From positions 10,765 to 74,764 of the forward strand of contig DASPSV010000032.1 in the NCBI GenBank assembly GCA_035623755.1: a DNA stretch of 64,000 nucleotides, given 5' to 3'. Under the pieces are notes generated by a model. The model did not search any database, was not told the origin of the DNA, and worked only from the letters and a program-made list of their open reading frames with translations. The translations under genes and the position numbers were made by a program. Positions 6,104-55,176 of this stretch are shown here, piece after piece. The DNA comes from Gemmatimonadales bacterium (GTDB taxonomy: Bacteria; Gemmatimonadota; Gemmatimonadetes; Gemmatimonadales; JACORV01). Positions within the stretch are counted from its first letter, which is position 1; each line of letters opens with the position of its first letter.

Positions 6104-8679
6104 GCCTCCTTGGGGGCGCGGGGCGCGGCGCCGCCCTGCGCCCGGCGCTGCAGGTCCGCTAGCCGCGCCAGCGCCTCGCGCGGCGTGAGGCCGTCGAGGT
6201 CGAGCGCGCGGAGCTCGGCGAGGAGCGGATCCTCGGCCGGGGTGAACAGCGCCAGCTGGTCGGCGGGCGAGGGCGTCGTGGCCACGCGGTGCCCGGCTTC
6301 GAGCGAGCGCAGGACGGCACGCGCGCGGTCGAGCACCTCCGGCGGCAGCCCGGCGAGCCGCCCCACGTGGATGCCGTAGGAGCGGTCGGCCCCGCCCGGA
6401 CGCAGCCGGTGAAGGAAGATGACCTCGTCGCCGGACTCGTGGACGGCGACGTTGAAGTTCACGACCCGCGCGTACCGGTCGGCCAGCTGCGTGAGCTCGT
6501 GGTAGTGGGTGGCGAACACCGCCTTGCAGCCCACCCGCTCGTGCAGGTGCTCCGCCACCGCCCAGGCGATCGCGACGCCGTCGTAGGTCGAGGTGCCGCG
6601 GCCGATCTCGTCGAGCAGCACCAGGCTGCGCCGGGTCGCGTTGTGGAGAATGGACGCCGTCTCGCTCATCTCCACCAGGAACGTGCTCTGGCCCCGCGCC
6701 AGGTCGTCGCTGGCGCCGACCCGCGTGAACAGGCGGTCCACCACGCCGATCCGCGCGGCGCGCGCGGGAACGAACGAGCCGGCCTGGGCCAGGATCACCA
6801 GCAGCGCGACCTGGCGCAGCACGGTGCTCTTGCCCGCCATGTTCGGTCCCGTGACGATCATGATCTGGTGATCGACGTCGAGCCGGAGGTCGTTGGGGAT
6901 GAACGCCTCGCGCGGCATCACGCGCTCGACCACCGGGTGCCGCCCCGCCTCGATCTCGAGCGCGAAGCCGTCCCCGACCTCGGGCCGCGTGTAGCCGCCC
7001 TGGGCCGCGACGTCGGCGAGGCTCGCGACCACGTCCGCCGCGGCGATCCGCGCCGCCGTGTCCTGGGTTCTCCGGATCGCCCGCCCCACCACGTCGCGCA
7101 CCTCGCCGAAGACGCGCTCCTCGAGGGCCGCGATCTGCTCCTCGGCTCCGAGCACCTTGGCCTCGTACGCCTTGAGCTCCGGCGTCACGTAGCGCTCGGC
7201 GCCGGTGAGCGTCTGGCGCCGCTCGTAGTCGGCGGGCACCGCGTCCCGGTTGGCGTGGGTGACCTCGATGTAGTACCCGAACACCTTGTTGTAGCCGACC
7301 TTGAGCGAGCCGATGCCGGTGCGGGCGCGCTCCCGGGCCTGGAGCGAGGCGATGTAGGCGCGCCCGCCGTCACGCAGCGAGCGCAGTTCGTCGAGTGCGG
7401 CGCTGTGGCCGGGCCGGATCGCGTCGCCGTCGCCGAGCGCCGCGGGAGGACGGTCCACCAGCGCCGCGGCGAGCGCGGCGGCGACGTCCGCCAGCAAATC
7501 GAATCCGGCGCCGAGGTCGTACAGATCGCCCAGCACCGCCGTGAGGGCCGGCAGGCGCTCGAGCGACGAGCGCAGCGCGCCGAGGTCGCGCGGCGTGGCG
7601 CGGCGCGCCGCCGCCTTGGCGCCCAGGCGCTCCACGTCGCGTACGCCGTCCAGCGCCTCGCGGAGCGCGGCGCGGCGCGGCTCGTCGGCGACCAGCGCGC
7701 CGACGGCGTCGAGCCGGGCGGCGATCGCCGCCGGGTCGGTGAGCGGAGCCAGGAGCCAGCCGCGCAACAGGCGCGCGCCCATCGGCGTCATGGTGTGGTC
7801 CACGACCGCGAGGAGCGTCGCCTGCTCGCCGCCCGCGCGCAGCGGCTCCACCAGCTCGAGGTTGCGGCGCGTCATCGCGTCCACGTGGAGCTGTCCCTCC
7901 ACGCGCCGGGCCACCGGCCGGCGCAGCTGCGGCAGGCCACCCGGCTGGAGCTCGCCCAGGTAGCGGAGCAGGGCTCCGGCCGCCCCCACCGCGAGCGCGT
8001 CGTCGGGTCCGAGGCCGAGGCCGTCCAGCGAGGCGAGCTCGAAGCGCCGGGCCAGGTCCTCGCCCGCCAGGGACGGATCGAACTCCCACCGCTCCCGGCG
8101 CGTGACCAGCACGCCCTGCGGGGCGAGCGCGGCGGCGCCTTCGGGGACGATGACCTCGGACGGGTTGTAGCGCTGCAGCGCCGCCTCGAGCGCGGCGGCC
8201 GGGGCGCTCTCCAGGACGAACTCGCCCGTGGAGAGATCCGCCGCGGCGAAGCCGGTGCGTGCGCCGTCGGTCGCCAGGGCGACCAGGAACGTGTTGCGGC
8301 GCTCCTCGAGCAGGTCGTCGGCCATCACCGCGCCGGGGGTCACGACCTCGATCACCTCGCGGCGCACGATGCCCTTGGCGAGCTTCGGGTCCTCGACCTG
8401 CTCGCAGATGGCCACGCGGAAGCCCCGCTCCACCAGGCGCTTGATGTAGACGGGCGCGGCCTTGACGGGCACGCCGGCCAGCGGCACCTCCGACGCGCCG
8501 CCATTGTTGCGGGAGGTGAGCGTGAGGCCGAGCGCGCGCGCACCGACCTCCGCGTCGTCCTCGAACATCTCGTAGAAGTCGCCCATCCGGAACAGCAGGA
8601 TGGCGTCGCGGTGCCGCGCCTTGATCTCGCGGTACTGCTGCATCAGCGGCGTCGAGACGTCGATGCCGGGCAGGGTCAC
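6100..8679 (-). CDS. mutS: DNA mismatch repair protein MutS
   Basis: Start reset to GTG (V315 of ORF 6100..9621). TPLMQQYREIKARHRDAILLFRMGDFYEMF, Walker A GPNMAGKSTVLRQ, DEIGRGTSTYDG. Confidence 0.95.
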   Translation of the reverse strand: MTLPGIDVSTPLMQQYREIKARHRDAILLFRMGDFYEMFEDDAEVGARALGLTLTSRNNGGASEVPLAGVPVKAAPVYIKRLVERGFRVAICEQVEDPKLAKGIVRREVIEVVTPGAVMADDLLEERRNTFLVALATDGARTGFAAADLSTGEFVLESAPAAALEAALQRYNPSEVIVPEGAAALAPQGVLVTRRERWEFDPSLAGEDLARRFELASLDGLGLGPDDALAVGAAGALLRYLGELQPGGLPQLRRPVARRVEGQLHVDAMTRRNLELVEPLRAGGEQATLLAVVDHTMTPMGARLLRGWLLAPLTDPAAIAARLDAVGALVADEPRRAALREALDGVRDVERLGAKAAARRATPRDLGALRSSLERLPALTAVLGDLYDLGAGFDLLADVAAALAAALVDRPPAALGDGDAIRPGHSAALDELRSLRDGGRAYIASLQARERARTGIGSLKVGYNKVFGYYIEVTHANRDAVPADYERRQTLTGAERYVTPELKAYEAKVLGAEEQIAALEERVFGEVRDVVGRAIRRTQDTAARIAAADVVASLADVAAQGGYTRPEVGDGFALEIEAGRHPVVERVMPREAFIPNDLRLDVDHQIMIVTGPNMAGKSTVLRQVALLVILAQAGSFVPARAARIGVVDRLFTRVGASDDLARGQSTFLVEMSETASILHNATRRSLVLLDEIGRGTSTYDGVAIAWAVAEHLHERVGCKAVFATHYHELTQLADRYARVVNFNVAVHESGDEVIFLHRLRPGGADRSYGIHVGRLAGLPPEVLDRARAVLRSLEAGHRVATTPSPADQLALFTPAEDPLLAELRALDLDGLTPREALARLADLQRRAQGGAAPRAPKEA

Positions 8680-17869: not shown

Positions 17870-17942
<73 letters not shown>

Positions 17943-49651: not shown

Positions 49652-49727
49652 GGCCCTCGCCAGCCGCCACAGCGGGCAGCGTGCGCCATCAACCGGTGAC
49701 GGCGCGTAGCCTAACGCATTGTGGGAC

Positions 49728-50183
49728 ATGGAGATCGCCGTGGCAACCGAGCTGAGCAGCGGAGCCATCTCCAGCATTCTCGAGTCTGTTCCCGGCATCG
49801 CACACGTGCTGCGGAGTCCCGTCGCCGACGCGATGGTGAATCTGTCGCGGGCGGCGGCCGGCGTCGGGCAATTCCGCATCCAGGATGCGCGCGAGTTGAT
49901 CCGCTACGCCGTGCGGCGCGGCCTGATCGGGAGCGACGAAGGCGACCGCGTCACGGCCGAGATCGAGGGTGCCGCGGCCGTGAAGGCGGAGAAGGCCGCG
50001 ACGCGCAAGGCGGCGCGCGAGGAGCGGAAGCGGGTAGCCGCGCGCGCGATGCGCGGCCACGCGCGCGCCGGCGACAAGGGTCACAAGCCCCCGTCGGCGA
50101 AGAAGCCGGCGCATGCCGCGACGCGGGGCAAGCGCGGCGCGCACGCGGGCAAGTCGGCCGCTCGGGGCAAACACCACCGCTAG
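49728..50183 (+). CDS. Hypothetical protein with a Lys/Arg/Ala-rich (histone-H1-like) C-terminal tail
   Basis: The ATG lies 3 codons inside the TTG-initiated ORF 49719..50183. High GC3. Tail AAVKAEKAATRKAAREERKRVAARAMRGHARAGDKGHKPPSAKKPAHAATRGKRGAHAGKSAARGKHHR. Confidence 0.55.
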   Translation: MEIAVATELSSGAISSILESVPGIAHVLRSPVADAMVNLSRAAAGVGQFRIQDARELIRYAVRRGLIGSDEGDRVTAEIEGAAAVKAEKAATRKAAREERKRVAARAMRGHARAGDKGHKPPSAKKPAHAATRGKRGAHAGKSAARGKHHR

Positions 50184-50434
50184 TGCCCGGGGCCGGGCGG
50201 CGCCTCGGCCCGTAAGGAAGTGACGCGCGGTGGGAGCGTGCCGCACGCGAGCGGTGGCCCGATTCGGGTGGCATCCGCCGGGCGGGCCCCACCGCGCGTC
50301 GCGTCAAACGGTAATGAGCGGCCGCCGCGCATCGCCGCCCGAGCGTTGCAGCGCGCGCCCTCCCGTTGCCGCGCGGTGGCATCGGATGGGCGCGGCGATT
50401 ACTCTCACGGGAAGCGGTTCGTCGAGGTGCTGCC

Positions 50435-51232
50435 ATGATGCGCGGAACGGTTCTGCTCGTGTCCCTCATCGTCGCCGGTGGCGTACGGTCGTCGCTCGAG
50501 GCCCAGAAGGCGCCGCCGTCGTCCACCCAGCATCCGGCTCAGCCCGCCACGCAGCCCCCCGCGGCCCAGCCGACGGCGACGGCCCCGGCGAATCCGCAGC
50601 CCGTCACGCCGCAGTCCACGAGACCCGCTCCGACCCCGGCGGCGGCGCCGAGCTACACGGCAGGGCTGGCGATGGCCGCGTACGCCGGCAGCACGCAGCA
50701 GGAGGCGCTGGACTACGCGGCGCGCCTGGGGCGCATGCTCGATTCCACGATCGTGACGCTGGTCTCCACGTTCCGGAACACGTCGGGACAGCCGATGATC
50801 GGTGCGAGCAGTCCGGCGAGCCTGTCGCAGCGGGAGCGCGACCGCTGGACCCGCTGCCGGAACGTATACTGGGACCTCACCACCTACGCGTCGGCGATGG
50901 ATCCGCTGCGGCAGGCCCTCGGATCGGATCCGGCGCTCCAGCGGGCGGTGGCCGACCTGGACTCGGCGTTCGACCGGAGCGTGGCCACCGTCGAGTGCGA
51001 CAACGTGGCGAGCATGATCGACGCGCCGGACCGGTGGACGCCGTGGGCGGACCAGTACGAGTCGGCGGCCCGCCACTTCTACCGCGACTTCTACGCCCAG
51101 GTCCGGGACGTCCACGAGAAGGACCGGGCCCTGGTCAACGAGCTGAACCGGTTCCTCGGCTCGGGGCACCGCGTCACTCCTCCGCCTGCGCTGCCGCCGA
51201 ATCCGCCTTTCGCGGGCGCCGCACCCGGCTGA
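50435..51232 (+). CDS. Secreted hypothetical protein with a Pro/Gln/Thr-rich linker
   Basis: Start reset to MMRGTVLLVSLIVAGG (signal) within ORF 50366..51232. No family recognised. Confidence 0.55.
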   Translation: MMRGTVLLVSLIVAGGVRSSLEAQKAPPSSTQHPAQPATQPPAAQPTATAPANPQPVTPQSTRPAPTPAAAPSYTAGLAMAAYAGSTQQEALDYAARLGRMLDSTIVTLVSTFRNTSGQPMIGASSPASLSQRERDRWTRCRNVYWDLTTYASAMDPLRQALGSDPALQRAVADLDSAFDRSVATVECDNVASMIDAPDRWTPWADQYESAARHFYRDFYAQVRDVHEKDRALVNELNRFLGSGHRVTPPPALPPNPPFAGAAPG

Positions 51233-51466
51233 TCCCGCGCCCGGGCCGCCGCGGCGGCGTCCGGGCCCTCCCCGATTCGCATCGACGACCACCGACGCGG
51301 GGTTGCGCCGCGGCGCCGCGCACGCGCCAAGCGCAAGCGTCCACACGGAATTCCATTCCACATGTCGACATCGTGGGGAAAGGCGGCGGAACTCCTTCGC
51401 CCCAGCGCGGTTGGAGTCCACATCCACCGCACATGAAAATGGCGTAACCCGAAGCAAATCCGGCAC

Positions 51467-51494
51467 TTGCATTGCGATCGGACGACGGTATATT
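51467..51494 (+). promoter_or_regulatory. Sigma70-like promoter candidate for the putative ncRNA
   Basis: TTGCAT-N16-TATATT. The -10 element sits in the loop of the inverted repeat GACGACGG/CCGTCGTC. Confidence 0.35.
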
Positions 51495-51499
51495 CGCAC

Positions 51500-51924
51500 C
51501 GTCGTCGGCGGGGAAGGGATCGGGCTCTGCTTGGTCTACGCCTGCTGACGGGCCCGAGCGACAGCTTGGGGGAGGGCGCCGATGCAAACAAGGGCACAGG
51601 CGCCCGTCGATCCCAGGGCACCCGTTGACTCGGGTAGGTGAGGCCAATCGCGCGCCTCACTCCACCTCGCCATGGCGCAGCGGGGTGCACTGCGAGAGGC
51701 TGGTACGCGATCCGGCCGGACTCGAAGCGCTCGGAGAGGTGAACCACGTGGCGCGGCCACGCTGCGTGGGGATCGAAGCCGGAGCTTCTGGCAGCCCTAC
51801 CGGGACCCTGACAACAGACAACCGGTGGCTGGTGGAAGAAAAACGGAGGAGCGATCCTCCGGCTCCGGGTAGCCACTTCGGCGACGGCCCGACTGGGGAG
51901 ACCCAGGCGGGCCGTCGTGTTTTC
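51500..51924 (+). ncRNA. Candidate structured non-coding RNA, class unknown
   Basis: Bounded by a TTGCAT-N16-TATATT promoter-like element and a 14-bp GAGA-loop hairpin plus U-tract. Dense nested GC helices with GNRA loops, and no ORF with genome-like codon bias. See finding 1. Confidence 0.35.
51883..51924 (+). terminator. Rho-independent terminator
   Basis: GACGGCCCGACTGGG-GAGA-CCCAGGCGGGCCGTC (14 bp, one A/G mismatch) followed by GTGTTTTC. A second hairpin CCGCCGCC-CGACCC-GGCGGCGG follows at 51930-51951. Confidence 0.7.
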
Positions 51925-51957
51925 GGCGTCCGCCGCCCGACCCGGCGGCGGTGACGA

Positions 51958-52596
51958 TCAGTCTTCCCGGGAGCTTCCGAGCTCGACGTACGCCCAGCCG
52001 CGGCTGCGGCGCTCGCCGAGCGTGGTGGGCGGGAACAGGAAGCCGGCGCCCGTGGTGGCGAACCACGCGGCGTGCAGGTGGTCGGCGCCCTCCGGCACGG
52101 GACCCTTGAACAGCTCCAGCAGCCAGCGTCGCACGTGCTCGAGCTCCGGGGCACGCGCCGCGAAGAGCGCGATGACGGCGCCGCGGCCCTGCGTGGTGAC
52201 GAGGAAGTGCGCGATGGCGTTCCAGCGCTCGGCGAACTCGTAGCCGAGGACGTACGCCTCGTCCACGACCGGGGTGCCGTCCACGGGCGTCTTCTGCGGC
52301 GCCTCGATCCGCGGGCCCAGAAAGCGGTAGACCGGCTTGTCGTCGACGACTCGCTCGATGACGGCCACCCCCGTCTCGGCCGCGAACCAGGCCGCGTGGA
52401 GGCGGTCGGACGGCTGGAACAGCCCCGTCTCCCCCGTCCACTGCAGCACCGCGAGGGCGTGGTAGAGCGGGCAGCCCGCGCTGTCGTCCACGGTGATGAG
52501 GCGGGGCGCCGTGCCCGCGGCGCGCAGGAACGCCGCGAGCGCGTCCGCACGCTCCGCGAACTCCTCGTCGGTGCGCCGGTCGCTCACCGGGGCCAT
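51958..52596 (-). CDS. Hypothetical protein with an internal ~85-aa duplication
   Basis: 212 aa. Both halves run ER..A.A.FL ... LHAAWFA (DRLHAAWFAAETG and DHLHAAWFATTGAG). High GC3. Confidence 0.55.
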   Translation of the reverse strand: MAPVSDRRTDEEFAERADALAAFLRAAGTAPRLITVDDSAGCPLYHALAVLQWTGETGLFQPSDRLHAAWFAAETGVAVIERVVDDKPVYRFLGPRIEAPQKTPVDGTPVVDEAYVLGYEFAERWNAIAHFLVTTQGRGAVIALFAARAPELEHVRRWLLELFKGPVPEGADHLHAAWFATTGAGFLFPPTTLGERRSRGWAYVELGSSRED

Positions 52597-52647: not shown

Positions 52648-53613
52648 TCATGAGGTCCCCCGGTACACGCGCCGCCGGTCGAGCGCCCAGATCGGCTTCG
52701 ACACCGCATCGCCCTCGGCGAAATTCGCCGGCTCCCTGATCGCGGCGGCGATGTTCGCGGTGGCCGCCGAGGCGAGATCGGCGTAGTGCAGCACCTCCGC
52801 CTCGAGCGTCATCGGGCGCACCGGGCTGCCGAACTCCAGCTCGCCGTGGTGGCTGAGCACGAGGTGCTGGAGCACCAGGCGCTCGGCGTCGCTCGTGACC
52901 GGGGATTCCGGCTCGTCCAGTCGGCGGTCGAGCATCAGGGAACCCAGCACGACGTGCCCCAGCAGGCTGCCGGCCTCGGTCATCGCGAACAGCCCGTCCC
53001 AGCGGTACGCCTCCAGCTTGCCGACGTCGTGGAGCAGGACGCCCGAGAGCACGAGATCCCAGTTCGCGCCGCACGCCTTGGCCATGGGGCGGGCGATGGC
53101 GCCGACCTCGACGGTGTGCTTGAGCAGGCCGCCCAGCTCGGCGTGGTGGTTGGCGAGCGAGGCCGGGCAGCGCTCGTACCGGGCGCGGAAGTCCGGGTCG
53201 TCGAAGAACAGGGCGACGGCACGGCGCCACGCGCCGTCGGCCATGTCGCCGCGCCACTTCTCGACCGCGCTCCACCACGGCGCGACGTCGCCCACCGACG
53301 GCAGGAGCTGTGCCCAGTCCACCATCTCGCGCGCCACCGGCCTGAGGCCGGTCACCTTCAGCTGCCGGTCGGTGCGGTACATCCCGATCTCGCCGATGAC
53401 GCTGAGCGCGGCGCCTTTCTCGACGCCCTCGACCTTGTGGAGGTCGGAGGTCCAGAACGGCGCGGTCTTCAGCCGGCCCGTGCTGTTGGCGAGGGTGAGG
53501 ATGACGAAGGGATTGCCGTCGGCCTGGGTGCGCTGCTCCACGTCCCACACGAGAAACGTGCCTTCCACGCGGGCGCCGACGACGAGGTCGGGGAGGGAGA
53601 CGGGGGCGGGCAT
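52648..53613 (-). CDS. YhaM-like 3'-5' exoribonuclease (OB-fold plus HD domain)
   Basis: Start reset to M21 (MPAPVSLPDL) of ORF 52648..53673. N-terminal OB fold (GTFLVWDVEQRTQADGNPFVILTLANSTG). HD domain (HHAELGGLLKHT, LLHDVGK, SHHG). Confidence 0.8.
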   Translation of the reverse strand: MPAPVSLPDLVVGARVEGTFLVWDVEQRTQADGNPFVILTLANSTGRLKTAPFWTSDLHKVEGVEKGAALSVIGEIGMYRTDRQLKVTGLRPVAREMVDWAQLLPSVGDVAPWWSAVEKWRGDMADGAWRRAVALFFDDPDFRARYERCPASLANHHAELGGLLKHTVEVGAIARPMAKACGANWDLVLSGVLLHDVGKLEAYRWDGLFAMTEAGSLLGHVVLGSLMLDRRLDEPESPVTSDAERLVLQHLVLSHHGELEFGSPVRPMTLEAEVLHYADLASAATANIAAAIREPANFAEGDAVSKPIWALDRRRVYRGTS

Positions 53614-53627
53614 GTGAGTAATAAAGC

Positions 53628-53698
53628 GGGGGTAGGGTGCAGGGTGTAAGGGTGTGAGCCGGCGCGCCCACACCCTACACCCTACACCCTACACCCCT
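53628..53698. repeat. G-rich heptamer inverted repeat (hairpin or G-quadruplex-capable)
   Basis: Left arm GGGGGTAGGGTGCAGGGTGTAAGGGTGTG, loop AGCCGGCGCGCC, right arm CACACCCTACACCCTACACCCTACACCCC. The right arm contains 3 tandem CTACACC units. Confidence 0.8.
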
Positions 53699-55176
53699 CT
53701 CTTCTTCGGCTCCTTCAACCGGTGCAGGCTCGCGTCCCGGTCGTCGGCCGGCGTCATCCGGCGGATCACCGGCTCGGCCCCGGGCAGCAGGTGCGCGATC
53801 GAGTTGGCGTAGTACTCCAGCAGCGGCCGCTGGCGCGGCATGATGGCCACCGACGCGCCGGTGACCATGACGACGTGCCGCATCCGGAACATCCGGCGGG
53901 CGGTGGCCCACGTCGCCTCGATGGAGCGGTCGGCGCGCACGACCTTGGCGTTCACCTCGAGCAGGCGGTCCCGGAACTCGCGCATCCGCTCGAGCAGCTC
54001 GGGCAGCATGACGACGTGGCGCTCGAAGGAGAGCAGGGCCGCGGAGGCGAGCGCCACCGGCGTGACCGGCACGATGATGCGCACCCGCTCCATCGCGTCG
54101 TCCGCGAGACGCTGGACGTGCGGCAGCCGCGCCTGACGCGGCAGCGCCAGCACGTCGGTGGCCTGGGACGCGAGCCAGCCCCGGACCGACAGCGGGGTGC
54201 CGAAGTTCACCGCCGCCCGCCCGTAGCGCTTGAGGCGGCCGGAGACGAGGCGCGCGGTGTTGAGGAGCAGGTACTGCAGGACGCTGGAGGCCTGGCGCGT
54301 GCGCGAGAGGCGCAGCTCCGGGTCGAGGCACTCCTGGATCAGCACCCGGTCCTCGAGGGTGCGGTCGTAGTTGAGGGCCACCGGCACCAGCCAGATGTCG
54401 CGGTCGAACCCCGGCTCCCGCAGCGTGCCCACGATGTAGTCGAGCAGTCCGATCTTGGCGGGCTGGAGCTTCCCGTCGCGCGAGAGCCCGCCCTCGGGGA
54501 ACAGGCCCTGGGTGACCCCGTTGCGGGTGATGAGCTGGACGTAGCGCTCGAGCACCGCGTGGTAGAGGGGCTCGCGATAGCGGCGCCGGATGAAATACGA
54601 CCCGAACGACTTGAAGATCGTCTCCAGCGGCCAGACGCGGGCCCACTCGCCGACCGCGTAGCTGACCGCGACGCCGCGCGCCAGCACGAACGCCACGACG
54701 ACGTAGTCGGCGTTGGAGCGGTGGTTCATCAGGTAGACGACCACGTCGCGCCGGGGAATGCGCTCCAGCGCGGCCTCGTCCTGATAGTCCACCGTCACGT
54801 TGTAGAGCAGGTTGAGCGTCAGCCGCGCCAGGTTGTAGCCGAGCCGGTAGTAGGAGAGGACGTTGAAGAACGGCAGGATCTCGTCGATGTACCGCTCGAC
54901 CCGGACCCGCACCTCCAGCTCGGTCAGCCGCTCCTGCCGCAGGTGGTCGCGCATCGCCGCCACGACCACGGGGTCGAGCACCAGCTCGTCGTGGATGGCA
55001 CGGCGGGAGACGAGCTTGTAGCGCGCGATGCGCGCCTGGAAGTCGAGCAGGGTGCGGCGTCCCCAGCGGCGCATCCGCCCGCGGAACGCCGCGGTCGCGC
55101 GCCGGGTCAGCCACAGGGTCAGGCCGGCGGCCAGGACGACGGCGAGCGCGAAGAGCAGCCAGTCGAGAGCGCTCAT
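53689..55176 (-). CDS. PlsB-like glycerol-3-phosphate/glycerolipid acyltransferase
   Basis: 495 aa. N-terminal TM helix, HX4D box in YLMNHRSNADYVV, and FPEGGLSRDGK. Confidence 0.8.
   Translation of the reverse strand: MSALDWLLFALAVVLAAGLTLWLTRRATAAFRGRMRRWGRRTLLDFQARIARYKLVSRRAIHDELVLDPVVVAAMRDHLRQERLTELEVRVRVERYIDEILPFFNVLSYYRLGYNLARLTLNLLYNVTVDYQDEAALERIPRRDVVVYLMNHRSNADYVVVAFVLARGVAVSYAVGEWARVWPLETIFKSFGSYFIRRRYREPLYHAVLERYVQLITRNGVTQGLFPEGGLSRDGKLQPAKIGLLDYIVGTLREPGFDRDIWLVPVALNYDRTLEDRVLIQECLDPELRLSRTRQASSVLQYLLLNTARLVSGRLKRYGRAAVNFGTPLSVRGWLASQATDVLALPRQARLPHVQRLADDAMERVRIIVPVTPVALASAALLSFERHVVMLPELLERMREFRDRLLEVNAKVVRADRSIEATWATARRMFRMRHVVMVTGASVAIMPRQRPLLEYYANSIAHLLPGAEPVIRRMTPADDRDASLHRLKEPKKRGV

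What the first reader, a model, noticed from the sequence alone, without database searches (positions are those of the whole stretch)
51233..51957. Promoter-to-terminator unit for a ~425-nt multi-hairpin RNA inside a 725-bp coding desert
**Seen in the sequence**
- The gap between the convergent genes 50435..51232 (+) and 51958..52596 (-) is far longer than any other intergenic region in this tightly packed window.
- No frame looks coding. The longest ORF (51472..51954) has roughly 30% A/T-ending codons by eye, whereas flanking genes have almost none. Its peptide is R/G/P-rich noise.
- Local GC drops. The 60 nt from 51421 are about 53% GC.

**Transcription-unit signals on the plus strand**
- TTGCAT-N16-TATATT at 51467-51494.
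- About 390 nt later, a 14-bp hairpin with a GAGA tetraloop followed by GUGUUUUC (51883-51924).

**Helices in between**
- GGGAUCG (51516-22) pairs with CGAUCCC (51608-14). This encloses GGGCGCC (51574-80) / GGCGCCC (51599-605).
- GUGAGGC (51638-44) / GCCUCAC (51654-60).
- GUGGC-GCG-GCCAC.
- GAAGC-CGGA-GCUUC (51775-88).
- CGGAGGA-GCGA-UCCUCCG (51844-61), nested inside GGUGGCU (51824-30) / AGCCACU (51871-77).

**Interpretation**
- Several GNRA loops and long-range pairings are what large structured RNAs look like.
- No gene lies downstream in this orientation, so it is not a riboswitch leader.
- I could not match it by eye to RNase P, tmRNA, SRP, 6S or the cobalamin riboswitch. It may be an undescribed RNA class.
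Basis: partly seen in the sequence, partly recalled or inferred. Interest (0 to 1): 0.7.

Follow-up and report, generated by a model that had tools for sequence, protein, structure and literature searches.

The report
New large structured RNA in Gemmatimonadales
The 725-base gap holds a separately transcribed, roughly 425-nucleotide non-coding RNA that folds into about 18 conserved helices, matches no catalogued RNA family, and always sits next to one small protein of unknown function in uncultivated soil Gemmatimonadales bacteria.

Summary
Window 51233-51957 is the longest stretch of the 64 kb without codon periodicity. It contains a plus-strand transcription unit:
- a conserved sigma-70-type promoter (TTGCAT 51467-72, 16-nt spacer, TATATT 51489-94);
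- an RNA body of about 425 nt (about 51498-51925);
- a -35 kcal/mol terminator hairpin followed by a U-tract.

I collected 59 distinct homologues from Gemmatimonadales MAGs and metagenomes, plus 6 full-length copies from a sister lineage (64-69% identical). The consensus fold has 144 base pairs in 19 helices. Of all cells, 97% are paired, and 55 pairs show changes on both sides, against 9-20 in slid controls. The sister lineage folds independently into the same helices in the same order.

Three are replaced by covariation-supported alternatives.

Nothing in Rfam 15 matches, even at E<=10. ARAGORN, plasmid, phage and literature searches are also negative.

The RNA gene is always adjacent to a 207-221-aa protein family with no Pfam or PDB match. 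The pair is convergent in the window's lineage and co-directional in the sister lineage.

Best reading: a new class of large trans-acting structured RNA, probably working with that protein. Function is inferred, not shown.

The parts
51340..51422 (+). Cluster of three same-orientation TCCACA boxes (51340-45, 51357-62, 51417-22), with TCCACATGTCGACATCGTGGGGA at 51357-79. This is conserved upstream DNA and resembles DnaA boxes.
   Evidence: The boxes are invariant or nearly so in 55 distinct upstream sequences. Equivalent TGTGGAT/TCCACA/TGTGGA boxes occur in the sister lineage. No conserved RNA structure is found here: alifold gives -3.5 kcal/mol with 0 covarying pairs. TCCACA is not enriched in the window overall (19 found, 15 expected), but these three cluster within 83 nt.
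51445..51466 (+). Promoter-proximal conserved element TAACCCGAAGCAAATCCGGCAC, lying directly upstream of the -35.
   Evidence: It is nearly invariant in both lineages. It occurs once in the window and never twice in any locus.
51467..51494 (+). Sigma-70-type promoter: -35 TTGCAT (51467-72), 16-nt spacer, -10 TATATT (51489-94).
   Evidence: The -35 is TTGCnn or TTGTnn in all. The spacer is 16 nt in 52 of 53 and varies in sequence. The -10 fits TAnnTT (TATATT 35, TAGATT 10, TATCTT 4, TACATT 2, TATGTT 2).
51498..51925 (+). The RNA itself, about 425 nt. The start is inferred as 4-7 nt after the -10. The end lies in the U-tract.
   Evidence: The profile hit spans 51489-51927 at E 9e-142 and is single copy. 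There are 144 conserved pairs in 19 helices. Several results argue against coding: 202 of 202 indels relative to the window are not multiples of 3, and variability is flat across codon positions.
51503..51724 (+). 5' domain. It contains helices 2-11: hairpins and multi-helix arms at 51503-50, 51552-635, 51637-62, 51663-87 and 51693-724.
   Evidence: Per-helix covariation is. The same helices are predicted independently in the sister lineage.
51647..51652 (+). Loop of helix 8 (AUCGCG), proposed to kiss the loop of helix 11.
   Evidence: It is complementary to 51706-11. The core UCGC/GCGA is invariant. The outer pair is A-U in the window lineage and G-C in 5 of 6 sister sequences, with G-U in the sixth.
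51706..51711 (+). Loop of helix 11 (CGCGAU), the partner of 51647-52.
51732..51880 (+). 3' domain, closed by helix 12 (51732-40 / 51872-80). It contains helices 13-18. The helix-18 loop at 51851-54 is a conserved GNRA tetraloop (GCGA, GCAA, GUGA, GAGA, GUAA). Invariant single strands include GAAAAACG and CCCUACCGGGA...CAACCGGUGGC.
   Evidence: The covariance-model alignment holds 64 copies, including 6 from the sister lineage. Cells are 95.3% paired, and 27 of 44 pairs change on both sides, against 7-11 in slid controls.
51881..51925 (+). Intrinsic terminator: a 16-bp hairpin with a GAGA loop (51881-51918), followed by GUGUUUUC.
   Evidence: It folds at -35.1 kcal/mol, z -5.5. Five of its pairs covary. 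The sister lineage has a different, longer hairpin followed by a U-tract at the same place. Conservation ends here.
51958..52596 (-). Gene for the 212-aa protein that always accompanies the RNA (p212 family).
   Evidence: It is adjacent and convergent in 52 of 52 loci found through the RNA alone and in all 14 genome loci. A 47%-identical sister family is adjacent and co-directional with the RNA in 26 of 29 loci. It has no Pfam, NCBIfam, PADLOC, PHROGs or PDB match.

Best explanation
**Shown**
- Window ~51498-51925 (+) is a stand-alone gene for a non-coding RNA of about 425 nt. It has its own conserved sigma-70-type promoter and an intrinsic terminator.
- The RNA folds into two multi-helix domains plus the terminator hairpin, 19 helices in all.
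- The fold is maintained by compensatory substitutions across at least two Gemmatimonadales lineages.
- About 43% of the unpaired nucleotides are invariant.
- One loop-loop (kissing) contact has a compensatory change between lineages.
- The RNA belongs to no family in Rfam 15.
- It is single copy and always lies next to a gene of one lineage-specific family of acidic 207-221-aa proteins (p212) of unknown fold. This holds even though the relative orientation of the two genes differs between lineages.

**Inferred**
- The RNA acts in trans as a stable, precisely folded molecule, either an RNP scaffold or a catalytic/architectural RNA, rather than as a base-pairing regulator.
- It acts in the same pathway as p212, most likely as its partner or substrate.
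- Its transcription is controlled through the conserved upstream boxes: three DnaA-box-like TCCACA repeats and a 22-nt element abutting the -35.
- The biochemical activity is unknown.
For: **Transcription unit**
- The -35 TTG and the -10 TAnnTT are kept. The spacer is 16 nt in 52 of 53 sequences and varies in sequence.
- The terminator folds at -35.1 kcal/mol and is followed by a U-tract.
- Conservation is bounded by these two signals.

**Strand**
- MFE is -244 kcal/mol (z -6.4) on the plus strand and -206 (z -3.6) on the minus strand.
- 11.8% of paired cells are G-U.

**Structure**
- 97.2% of cells are paired.
- 55 of 144 pairs change on both sides, against a shuffle mean of 30.8 (0 of 500 shuffles reach the observed value) and 9-20 in slid controls.
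- The 3' domain aligned by covariance model, including the sister lineage, gives 27 of 44 pairs against 7-11 in slid controls.
- An independent fold of the sister lineage gives the same helices and the same spacings.
- The kissing loop changes from A-U to G-C between lineages.

**Non-coding**
- 202 of 202 indels are not multiples of 3, and there is no third-position bias.
- There is no codon periodicity.

**No known family**
- Rfam at gathering thresholds and at E<=10 on the window and on 6 divergent homologues finds nothing.
- ARAGORN is negative.
- Literature searches found nothing.

**Linkage with p212**
- The two genes are adjacent in 52 of 52 loci found via the RNA alone.
- The linkage is retained in the sister lineage with a changed orientation and sometimes an intervening gene.
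- Other neighbours vary. The HD gene is absent in several loci, and upstream genes differ.
Against: - No transcript data exist. The 5' and 3' ends and expression itself are inferred from sequence.
- p212 is acidic (pI 5.3; family range 5.0-6.1) and has no recognisable RNA-binding fold. This is not what one expects of an RNA-binding partner.
- All sequences come from one order, so part of the conserved adjacency could be ordinary synteny.
- The cross-lineage evidence rests on only 6 full-length sister sequences.
- Distribution outside these two lineages could not be tested.
Confidence: 0.6

Rival explanations
1. The RNA works alone and self-assembles. It would form homo-oligomers through its self-complementary loops, as reported for ROOL, GOLLD and OLE RNAs. 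The adjacency to p212 would then be only synteny or co-regulation.
For: Two invariant loops (AUCGCG and CGCGAU) are mutually complementary and contain the palindrome CGCG, so they could pair within or between molecules. p212 is acidic and has no RNA-binding fold. Large ornate bacterial RNAs have been shown to form RNA-only homo-oligomers (PMC12286853, abstract listed).
Against: The RNA-p212 adjacency survives an inversion of relative orientation and the insertion of another gene between two lineages. This is hard to explain without a functional link. There is no experimental evidence for oligomerisation.
Confidence: 0.15
2. The RNA is a decoy or sponge that titrates a global protein, working like 6S RNA, Ms1 or CsrB. 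It would be strongly transcribed from the elaborate conserved promoter.
For: It has a stand-alone gene, a strong and highly conserved promoter with upstream factor sites, and many invariant unpaired nucleotides that could be protein-binding sites.
Against: The architecture is a two-domain, multi-junction fold. It is neither the single long hairpin with a central bubble of 6S RNA nor an array of repeated GGA hairpins. No repeated binding motif is evident. Rfam's 6S and CsrB-type models give no hit.
Confidence: 0.12
3. The RNA is an antisense or convergent-transcription regulator of the p212 operon, acting through overlapping 3' ends or a shared bidirectional terminator.
For: In the window lineage the RNA terminator ends -1 to 137 nt from the p212 stop codon on the opposite strand. 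The hairpin is also stable on the minus strand at -31.9 kcal/mol.
Against: In the sister lineage the RNA lies on the same strand as the p212-like gene, 190-270 nt downstream of it or of an extra gene. Antisense overlap therefore cannot be the conserved mechanism. Nineteen covarying helices are far more than such a role needs.
Confidence: 0.03
4. The RNA is a highly divergent member of a known housekeeping RNA family (RNase P RNA, tmRNA, SRP RNA or 6S RNA) that the Rfam models miss.
For: Its size is similar to RNase P RNA and tmRNA. By eye, a few 10-15-nt stretches resemble RNase P conserved regions, for example CCGGGUAGCUGCUU and ACAGACAACCGG. This is my own recollection of the E. coli M1 sequence, not a tool result.
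Against: No Rfam hit to any of these families even at E<=10 on 900 nt, nor on 6 divergent homologues. ARAGORN finds no tmRNA. The resembling stretches are not collinear with RNase P. The would-be P4 strands sit in other covariation-supported helices.
Confidence: 0.04
5. The region is not a functional RNA. It would be a long 3' UTR, a decayed gene, or a DNA-level element only.
For: No expression data are available.
Against: The region is 71-100% identical (median 80%) among 59 copies, while the neighbouring protein drops to 58-65% amino-acid identity. Base pairing is kept through compensatory changes. It has its own promoter and terminator.
Confidence: 0.01

Closest known systems
OLE RNA (ornate, large, extremophilic; Bacillota)
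   Same: It is a large (hundreds of nt), multi-helix bacterial non-coding RNA with many invariant unpaired nucleotides. Its biochemical function is unknown. It is restricted to one bacterial group and genetically linked to dedicated proteins of unknown function (OapA/B/C), as described in the abstracts of PMC9723947 and PMC11332333 listed.
   Different: There is no sequence or structure match to Rfam's OLE model. This RNA is about 425 nt against about 600 nt. It occurs in Gemmatimonadales, not Bacillota. It is transcribed from its own promoter rather than sitting inside an operon with its partner genes. The linked protein is unrelated to the Oap proteins.
ROOL and GOLLD RNAs
   Same: They are large ornate RNAs of unknown function whose complexity suggests more than regulation. 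A possible loop-loop contact here could, in principle, be intermolecular, as in their homo-oligomers (PMC12286853 abstract).
   Different: There is no Rfam match. This RNA is not phage- or plasmid-associated: it has 0 hits in viral contigs, phages and plasmids. It is smaller. Oligomerisation was not tested.
Bacterial RNase P RNA (type A)
   Same: It has a similar length, a two-domain multi-junction architecture and a stand-alone gene with its own promoter and terminator.
   Different: There is no hit to RF00010 or RF00011 at E<=10. The P4 pseudoknot and the CR-I to CR-V sequence blocks are not present in collinear order. This RNA is confined to one order rather than being universal.
6S RNA / Ms1 RNA
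   Same: They are trans-acting, stand-alone and probably abundant RNAs with strongly conserved promoters, and they act through shape rather than base pairing.
   Different: 6S RNA is a single extended hairpin of about 180 nt with a central bubble. This RNA is about 425 nt with 19 helices and several junctions. There is no Rfam hit.
Ro60 (Rsr) / Y RNA modules
   Same: A structured non-coding RNA gene is kept next to the gene of a dedicated protein. In some sister-lineage loci, RtcB and archease genes lie about 1 kb away, as in bacterial rsr-Y RNA-rtcB loci (from my own knowledge).
   Different: p212 is not a TROVE/Ro protein, having no Pfam match. The RNA is 2-4 times longer than Y RNAs and has no Y-RNA Rfam match. 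The RtcB proximity is seen in only one sub-group.

Membership tests
Any Rfam 15 family (4227 covariance models) | Score at or above the family's gathering threshold. | tested here: not met
   The only gathering-level hit in the 64 kb is tRNA-Phe at 17870. The best hit in 51150-52050 at E<=10 is ftsZ-DE on the minus strand of the terminator hairpin (21.5 bits against a threshold of 72.2, E 0.15). Nothing lies inside the RNA in 6 divergent homologue loci.
Bacterial RNase P RNA | Match to the RF00010/RF00011 models, which encode the P4 pseudoknot core with the CR-I and CR-V blocks. | tested here: not met
   No RNase P model is listed even at E<=10. The candidate strands are engaged in other covarying helices.
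Bacterial RNase P RNA | One essential copy per genome, so the canonical rnpB would be absent elsewhere if this RNA were it. | not testable with these tools
tmRNA | A tRNA-like domain plus a tag-peptide reading frame. | tested here: not met
   ARAGORN finds only tRNA-Phe in the window. There is no Rfam tmRNA hit.
6S RNA | A single extended hairpin of about 180 nt with a large central bubble. | tested here: not met
   The consensus fold is about 425 nt with 19 helices and several multi-helix junctions. There is no Rfam 6S hit.
   The only related hit is AdoCbl-II at 14.2 bits (threshold 36.5, E 6.1). It lies at 51362-51434, upstream of the RNA.
Riboswitch or cis-regulatory leader | Lies in the 5' UTR of a co-oriented regulated gene, with a conserved gene class downstream. 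| tested here: not met
   In the window lineage the next gene is convergent. In the sister lineage the downstream genes differ and have either orientation: LPG synthase, DUF4249, PlsB-like and amidohydrolase. A strong terminator ends the unit.
Independent non-coding RNA gene | Own promoter and own terminator bounding the conserved segment. | tested here: met
   The key -35 and -10 positions and the spacer length are conserved while the spacer sequence varies. The terminator hairpin is followed by a U-tract in both lineages. Conservation stops at both ends.
Independent non-coding RNA gene | A discrete transcript of the predicted size. | not testable with these tools
   No expression data are available.
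Conserved structured RNA | Base pairs maintained by compensatory substitutions beyond the controls. | tested here: met
   55 of 144 pairs change on both sides (427 cells), against a shuffle mean of 30.8 and 9-20 in slid controls. In the covariance-model alignment that includes the sister lineage, 27 of 44 pairs do so against 7-11.
Protein-coding gene | Frame-preserving indels, third-position variability and codon periodicity. | tested here: not met
   0 of 202 indels are multiples of 3. Variable columns are 0.58, 0.61 and 0.64 by codon position. There is no GC3 periodicity. No Pfam match exists for the two longest ORFs.
OLE / ROOL / GOLLD / raiA large RNAs | Match to the family covariance models. 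| tested here: not met
   No hits.
DnaA-box cluster (upstream DNA element) | Repeated 9-mers fitting TTATNCACA (consensus recalled from my own knowledge), bound by DnaA. | tested here: inconclusive
   Only the TCCACA core is invariant. Some loci read TTATCCAG|TCCACA or TGTGGAT. There is no GC-skew switch, so this is not an origin. Binding cannot be tested here.

The most novel reading that the evidence does not exclude
This is a previously unrecognised class of large, ornate bacterial RNA, about 425 nt with two multi-helix domains and a conserved kissing loop. It would be the functional core, catalytic or architectural, of a new ribonucleoprotein or RNA machine specific to soil Gemmatimonadales. 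Its dedicated partner would be the co-inherited 207-221-aa protein of novel fold. Its transcription would be tied to the cell cycle through DnaA-box-like sites.
Probability: 0.3. Interest if true: 0.85.

Novelty: categorically new. Interest (0 to 1): 0.74.

Why it matters
Bacterial non-coding RNAs of this size and structural complexity are rare. The known ones are ribosomal RNAs, RNase P, tmRNA, group I and II introns, and OLE, GOLLD and ROOL. Each has turned out to be a ribozyme, a machine component or an unexpected assembly.

This candidate comes with an unusually complete description:
- a defined promoter and terminator;
- a fold supported by covariation in two lineages;
- a candidate tertiary contact;
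- a single candidate partner protein.

It is therefore directly testable. It also comes from Gemmatimonadales, an abundant but barely cultivated soil group for which essentially no RNA biology is known.

The related protein families are large: 160 clusters in the window's lineage and more than 1,000 in the sister lineage. This suggests the RNA is widespread in soils and peat.

Tried and rejected
- **Replication origin.** The TCCACA boxes suggested one. I rejected it because there is no GC-skew switch and the genes converge rather than diverge.
- **Upstream block as part of the RNA.** I rejected this for 51340-51470. Alifold gives -3.5 kcal/mol with 0 covarying pairs, and the region has promoter-like spacing.
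- **Extra pseudoknots.** A loose Watson-Crick/MI scan was swamped by G/A-C/U phylogenetic signal. A strict stacked-helix scan gave only invariant candidates, for example GCUUGGGG 51564-71 with CUCCGGGU 63-70. These compete with supported helices.
- **More distant homologues among pattern matches.** The 63 metagenome pattern matches that lack the RNA share only the roughly 30-nt pattern and have a median GC of 0.55, so they are chance hits.
- **Mobile-element association.** There were no hits in viral contigs, phages or plasmids.
- **Function of p212.** PADLOC and PHROGs gave nothing. Foldseek against the PDB gave nothing better than E 0.12 and TM 0.24.
- **Literature.** Three full-text searches found no description of this RNA.
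- **Strict consensus scan.** It found no plus-strand promoter or terminator here. The -35 has 3 of 6 matches and the stem has one mismatch.
Full report
**1. The observation**

- GC of 51421-51480 is 0.533, against 0.728 for the window.
- ORF 51472-51954 has 29.8% A/T-ending codons, against 4-12.5% in the four neighbouring genes.
- TTGCAT (51467-72), 16 nt, then TATATT (51489-94) is present.
- So are all eight pairs of complementary strings.
- A scan of codon-position GC periodicity shows 51188-52007 as the longest non-periodic stretch in the 64 kb. It covers 820 positions; the next longest are 411 and 276. The "coding desert" is therefore real and exceptional for this window.
- The plus strand of 51495-51925 folds at -244.2 kcal/mol (z = -6.4 against dinucleotide shuffles). 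The minus strand folds at only -206.5 (z = -3.6).

**2. It is not coding**

Among 59 homologous copies, all 202 pairwise indels relative to the window are not multiples of three. The fraction of variable columns is flat across the three codon positions of the longest ORF, at 0.58, 0.61 and 0.64. The two longest ORFs have no Pfam match.

**3. Homologues**

- A genome scan with the adjacent 212-aa protein returned 14 Gemmatimonadales MAG loci. In all of them the intergenic DNA is 78-91% identical to window ~51330-51925, even where the protein is only 60-65% identical.
- An exact-pattern scan of metagenome contigs used two invariant RNA blocks (CAACCGGTGGC, 5-12 nt, GAAAAACG). It returned 120 loci, of which 57 carry the RNA. 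The other 63 share only the pattern and are chance matches.
- Viral contigs, phage records and plasmid records contain nothing similar.
- The RNA is single copy in the window and in every locus.
- This gave 59 distinct full-length sequences with pairwise identity of 71-100% (median 80%).

**4. Promoter and terminator**

In 55 distinct upstream sequences, the conserved positions are the ones that matter for a sigma-70 promoter.
- The -35 keeps TTG (TTGCnn or TTGTnn).
- The -10 keeps T, A and the final TT (TATATT 35, TAGATT 10, TATCTT 4, TACATT 2, TATGTT 2).
- The spacer is 16 nt in 52 of 53 sequences, while its sequence is free to vary.
- Conserved RNA sequence begins 6-8 nt after the -10.

Three further features lie upstream:
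- a nearly invariant 22-nt element (TAACCCGAAGCAAATCCGGCAC, 51445-66);
- three same-orientation TCCACA boxes (51340, 51357, 51417);
- a TCCACATnTCGACA...TGGGGA block.

This upstream segment has no conserved RNA structure. Alifold gives -3.5 kcal/mol with no covarying pair. It is therefore conserved as DNA, presumably as protein-binding sites.

At the other end, 51881-51918 is a 16-bp hairpin with a GAGA loop. It folds at -35.1 kcal/mol (z -5.5) and is followed by GUGUUUUC. Conservation stops immediately after it.

The simple consensus scanner missed both signals. The -35 has only 3 of 6 matches, and the stem has one internal mismatch.

**5. Secondary structure**

RNAalifold on the 59 sequences gives 144 pairs in 19 helices. 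Counting on the alignment gives:

| Measure | Observed | Controls |
|---|---|---|
| Cells that are standard pairs | 97.2% | 38-45% when the 3' partners are slid |
| Pairs with changes on both sides | 55 (427 cells) | shuffle mean 30.8 (0 of 500 reach the observed value); slid controls 9-20 |
| Covariation score | 0.242 | 0.04-0.07 |

- 11.8% of paired cells are G-U and 11 pairs are predominantly G-U. This fits the plus strand only.
- Unpaired columns are at least as conserved as paired ones: 43% against 38% invariant. This is typical of RNAs with tertiary or protein contacts.
- The helix-18 loop varies only within GNRA: GCGA, GCAA, GUGA, GAGA and GUAA.

Conserved pairings:
- GGGCGCC/GGCGCCC (helix 6)
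- GUGAGGC/GCCUCAC (helix 8, six covarying pairs)
- GUGGC..GCCAC (helix 13)
- CGGAGGA/UCCUCCG (helix 18)
- the terminator

Not the conserved pairings:
- **GGGAUCG/CGAUCCC.** GGGAUCG belongs to a local hairpin (helix 3). UCCCA pairs with UGGGG (helix 5), which changes G-C to C-G in the sister lineage.
- **GAAGC-CGGA-GCUUC.** It is replaced by GCCGGAG/CUCCGGG (helix 14) plus CUUC/GAAG (helix 15), and helix 15 covaries strongly.
- **GGUGGCU/AGCCACU.** This is a window-specific coincidence. The conserved partners form helices 12 and 16.

**6. A second lineage**

- A profile of the 212-aa family against 1.84 billion representative proteins found only 104 hits. Some were divergent full-length relatives, about 47% identical to the window protein.
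- One of these seeded a search that returned 1,088 clusters, all named Gemmatimonadales where a name exists.
- Of the 29 contigs fetched for six of these proteins, 26 carry a homologue of the RNA. The three without it have less than 200 nt of sequence beyond the genes.
- These RNAs are 64-69% identical to the window's.
- They have the same promoter architecture: TGTGGAT/TCCACA boxes, CTAACCCGAAGAAACATCGGCACTTGC, a 16-nt spacer and TATATT.
- Their terminator is a different, longer hairpin with a U-tract.
- Folded on their own, the six full-length sister sequences give the same helices in the same order. The inner distances are nearly identical: 28/29, 61/63, 39/39, 8/8, 6/6, 131/130, 78/75 and 4/4 nt. 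Many helices have different sequences, for example CGUCGGCGGG/CCUGCUGACG against CGGCUUGGAGG/CCUCCAAGACG, and CACCUCGC/GCGGGGUG against CACGUCGA/UCGACGUG.
- A covariance model of the 3' domain built from the first lineage aligns all six sister copies at E 1e-16 to 1e-22. On that alignment 95.3% of cells are paired, and 27 of 44 pairs change on both sides, against 7-11 in slid controls.
- A plain MAFFT alignment misplaces sister helices 2, 3 and the terminator. I did not re-align the 5' domain with a covariance model.

**7. A candidate tertiary contact**

The loop of helix 8 (AUCGCG, 51647-52) is complementary to the loop of helix 11 (CGCGAU, 51706-11). The core UCGC/GCGA is invariant in all 65 sequences. 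The outer pair is A-U in the window lineage and G-C in five of six sister sequences, with G-U in the sixth. That is one compensatory event, so the contact is suggestive and not proven. Whether it forms within or between molecules cannot be told from sequence.

**8. What it is not**

- Rfam 15 gives no gathering-level hit in the region.
- At E<=10, nothing recognisable hits the window segment.
- Nothing recognisable hits six divergent homologue loci either.
- ARAGORN finds no tmRNA.
- A few short stretches reminded me of RNase P conserved regions. They are not collinear with RNase P, and they lie in other supported helices.
- Full-text searches found no paper describing such an RNA in Gemmatimonadota.

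**9. Genomic context**

- In 52 of 52 loci found through the RNA alone and having at least 300 nt downstream, the 212-aa gene follows immediately and convergently. The gap is -1 to 137 nt, and 405 nt in one case.
- One locus has a 23S_rRNA_IVP gene inserted between the two.
- In the sister lineage the RNA lies on the same strand as the p212-like gene. It sits 190-270 nt after that gene, or after an extra 157-167-aa gene.
- Other neighbours change. The YhaM-like OB-HD exoribonuclease gene is absent in several loci, and upstream genes differ.
- The RNA and p212 are thus the only constant pair, and the link has survived a change of orientation. This argues for a functional connection and against an antisense mechanism.

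The protein p212 itself:
- has no Pfam, NCBIfam, PADLOC, PHROGs or PDB-sequence match;
- gives a confident AlphaFold model (pLDDT 85.9, pTM 0.85) with an internal beta-alpha-beta-alpha-beta3 duplication;
- has no structural match in the PDB, the best being E 0.12 and TM 0.24;
- is acidic, with pI 5.3 and a family range of 5.0-6.1, which is not what one expects of an RNA-binding protein.

**10. Interpretation**

*Shown:*
- an independently bounded, conserved, covarying, non-coding unit on the plus strand;
- no membership in any catalogued RNA family;
- strict genetic linkage to one orphan protein family.

*Inferred:*
- The RNA is transcribed from the predicted promoter to the predicted terminator.
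- It acts in trans through its shape.
- It works with or on p212.

The size, the number of junctions, the invariant single strands, the GNRA loop and the loop-loop contact point to an RNP core or a catalytic or architectural RNA. They do not point to a base-pairing regulator or a sponge. I put about 0.95 on "real structured RNA gene of a family not yet described". I put about 0.4 on "p212 is its direct partner".

**11. Limits**

- There are no expression data.
- Only six full-length sister sequences were available.
- Two structure libraries were unavailable.

Noticed in passing
window 51340-51422; sister loci, e.g. L142 ~1560-1640: Three TCCACA boxes lie 80-160 nt upstream of the RNA promoter. 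In other loci they read TTATCCAG|TCCACA, TGTGGAT or TCCACATCGTGTGGA. They resemble DnaA boxes (TTATNCACA, from my own knowledge). This could mean DnaA-dependent transcription or a DnaA-titrating site.
   Followed up: partly
window 51445-51466: The 22-nt element TAACCCGAAGCAAATCCGGCAC abuts the -35 and is almost invariant in both lineages. It is more conserved than most of the RNA. It is not A/T-rich like an UP element, and its binding factor is unknown.
   Followed up: partly
L018 3742-4107: A 121-aa 23S_rRNA_IVP (PF05635) gene is inserted between the 212-aa gene and the RNA in one metagenome contig. It is the only interruption of the pair seen in the window's lineage.
   Followed up: no
L149-L154 ~6328-8255: RtcB (RNA ligase) and archease genes lie about 1 kb downstream of the RNA in one sister sub-group. 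An LPG-synthase-TM gene sits in between. This is reminiscent of RNA-repair loci that carry Y RNAs.
   Followed up: no
window 53689-55176 (-); L145 5251-6483; L157 2838-3538; L149 5387-6331: Membrane-lipid genes recur within 0-2 genes of the RNA in both lineages. They include a PlsB-like acyltransferase (PF01553+PF19277) and an LPG_synthase_TM gene. This may be coincidence.
   Followed up: no
sister loci, e.g. L144 4627-5100, L142 1076-1579; L144 3432-3953 (-); L144 834-1034 (-): In the sister lineage the p212-like gene is translationally coupled to a 157-167-aa gene with no Pfam match. It is preceded by a divergent 173-220-aa secreted-looking protein and a cold-shock-domain gene. tblastn finds no homologue of the two orphan proteins in the window.
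   Followed up: partly
window 51958-52596 (-): The 212-aa protein has an internal duplication, with LHAAWFA appearing twice and two beta-alpha-beta-alpha-beta3 halves. It gives a confident AlphaFold model with no structural neighbour in the PDB, so it may be a new fold.
   Followed up: partly
window 52648-53673 (-): A 341-aa OB-fold plus HD-domain protein resembles the 3'-5' exoribonuclease YhaM (NF010007, E 2e-36, below cut-off). In most but not all loci of the window's lineage it is translationally coupled to the 212-aa gene.
   Followed up: partly
window 50111-50521: This is the second-longest stretch without codon periodicity. It covers the end of 49719-50183 and the start of the 288-aa ORF. 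That ORF has a TTG start at 50366 or an ATG at 50435, and it begins with a signal peptide and a low-complexity Pro/Ala/Gln region.
   Followed up: no
window 51564-51571 and 51863-51870: The invariant GCUUGGGG and CUCCGGGU are 8-nt complementary and could bridge the two domains. However, they compete with the supported helices 5 and 14, and there is no covariation to decide between them.
   Followed up: partly
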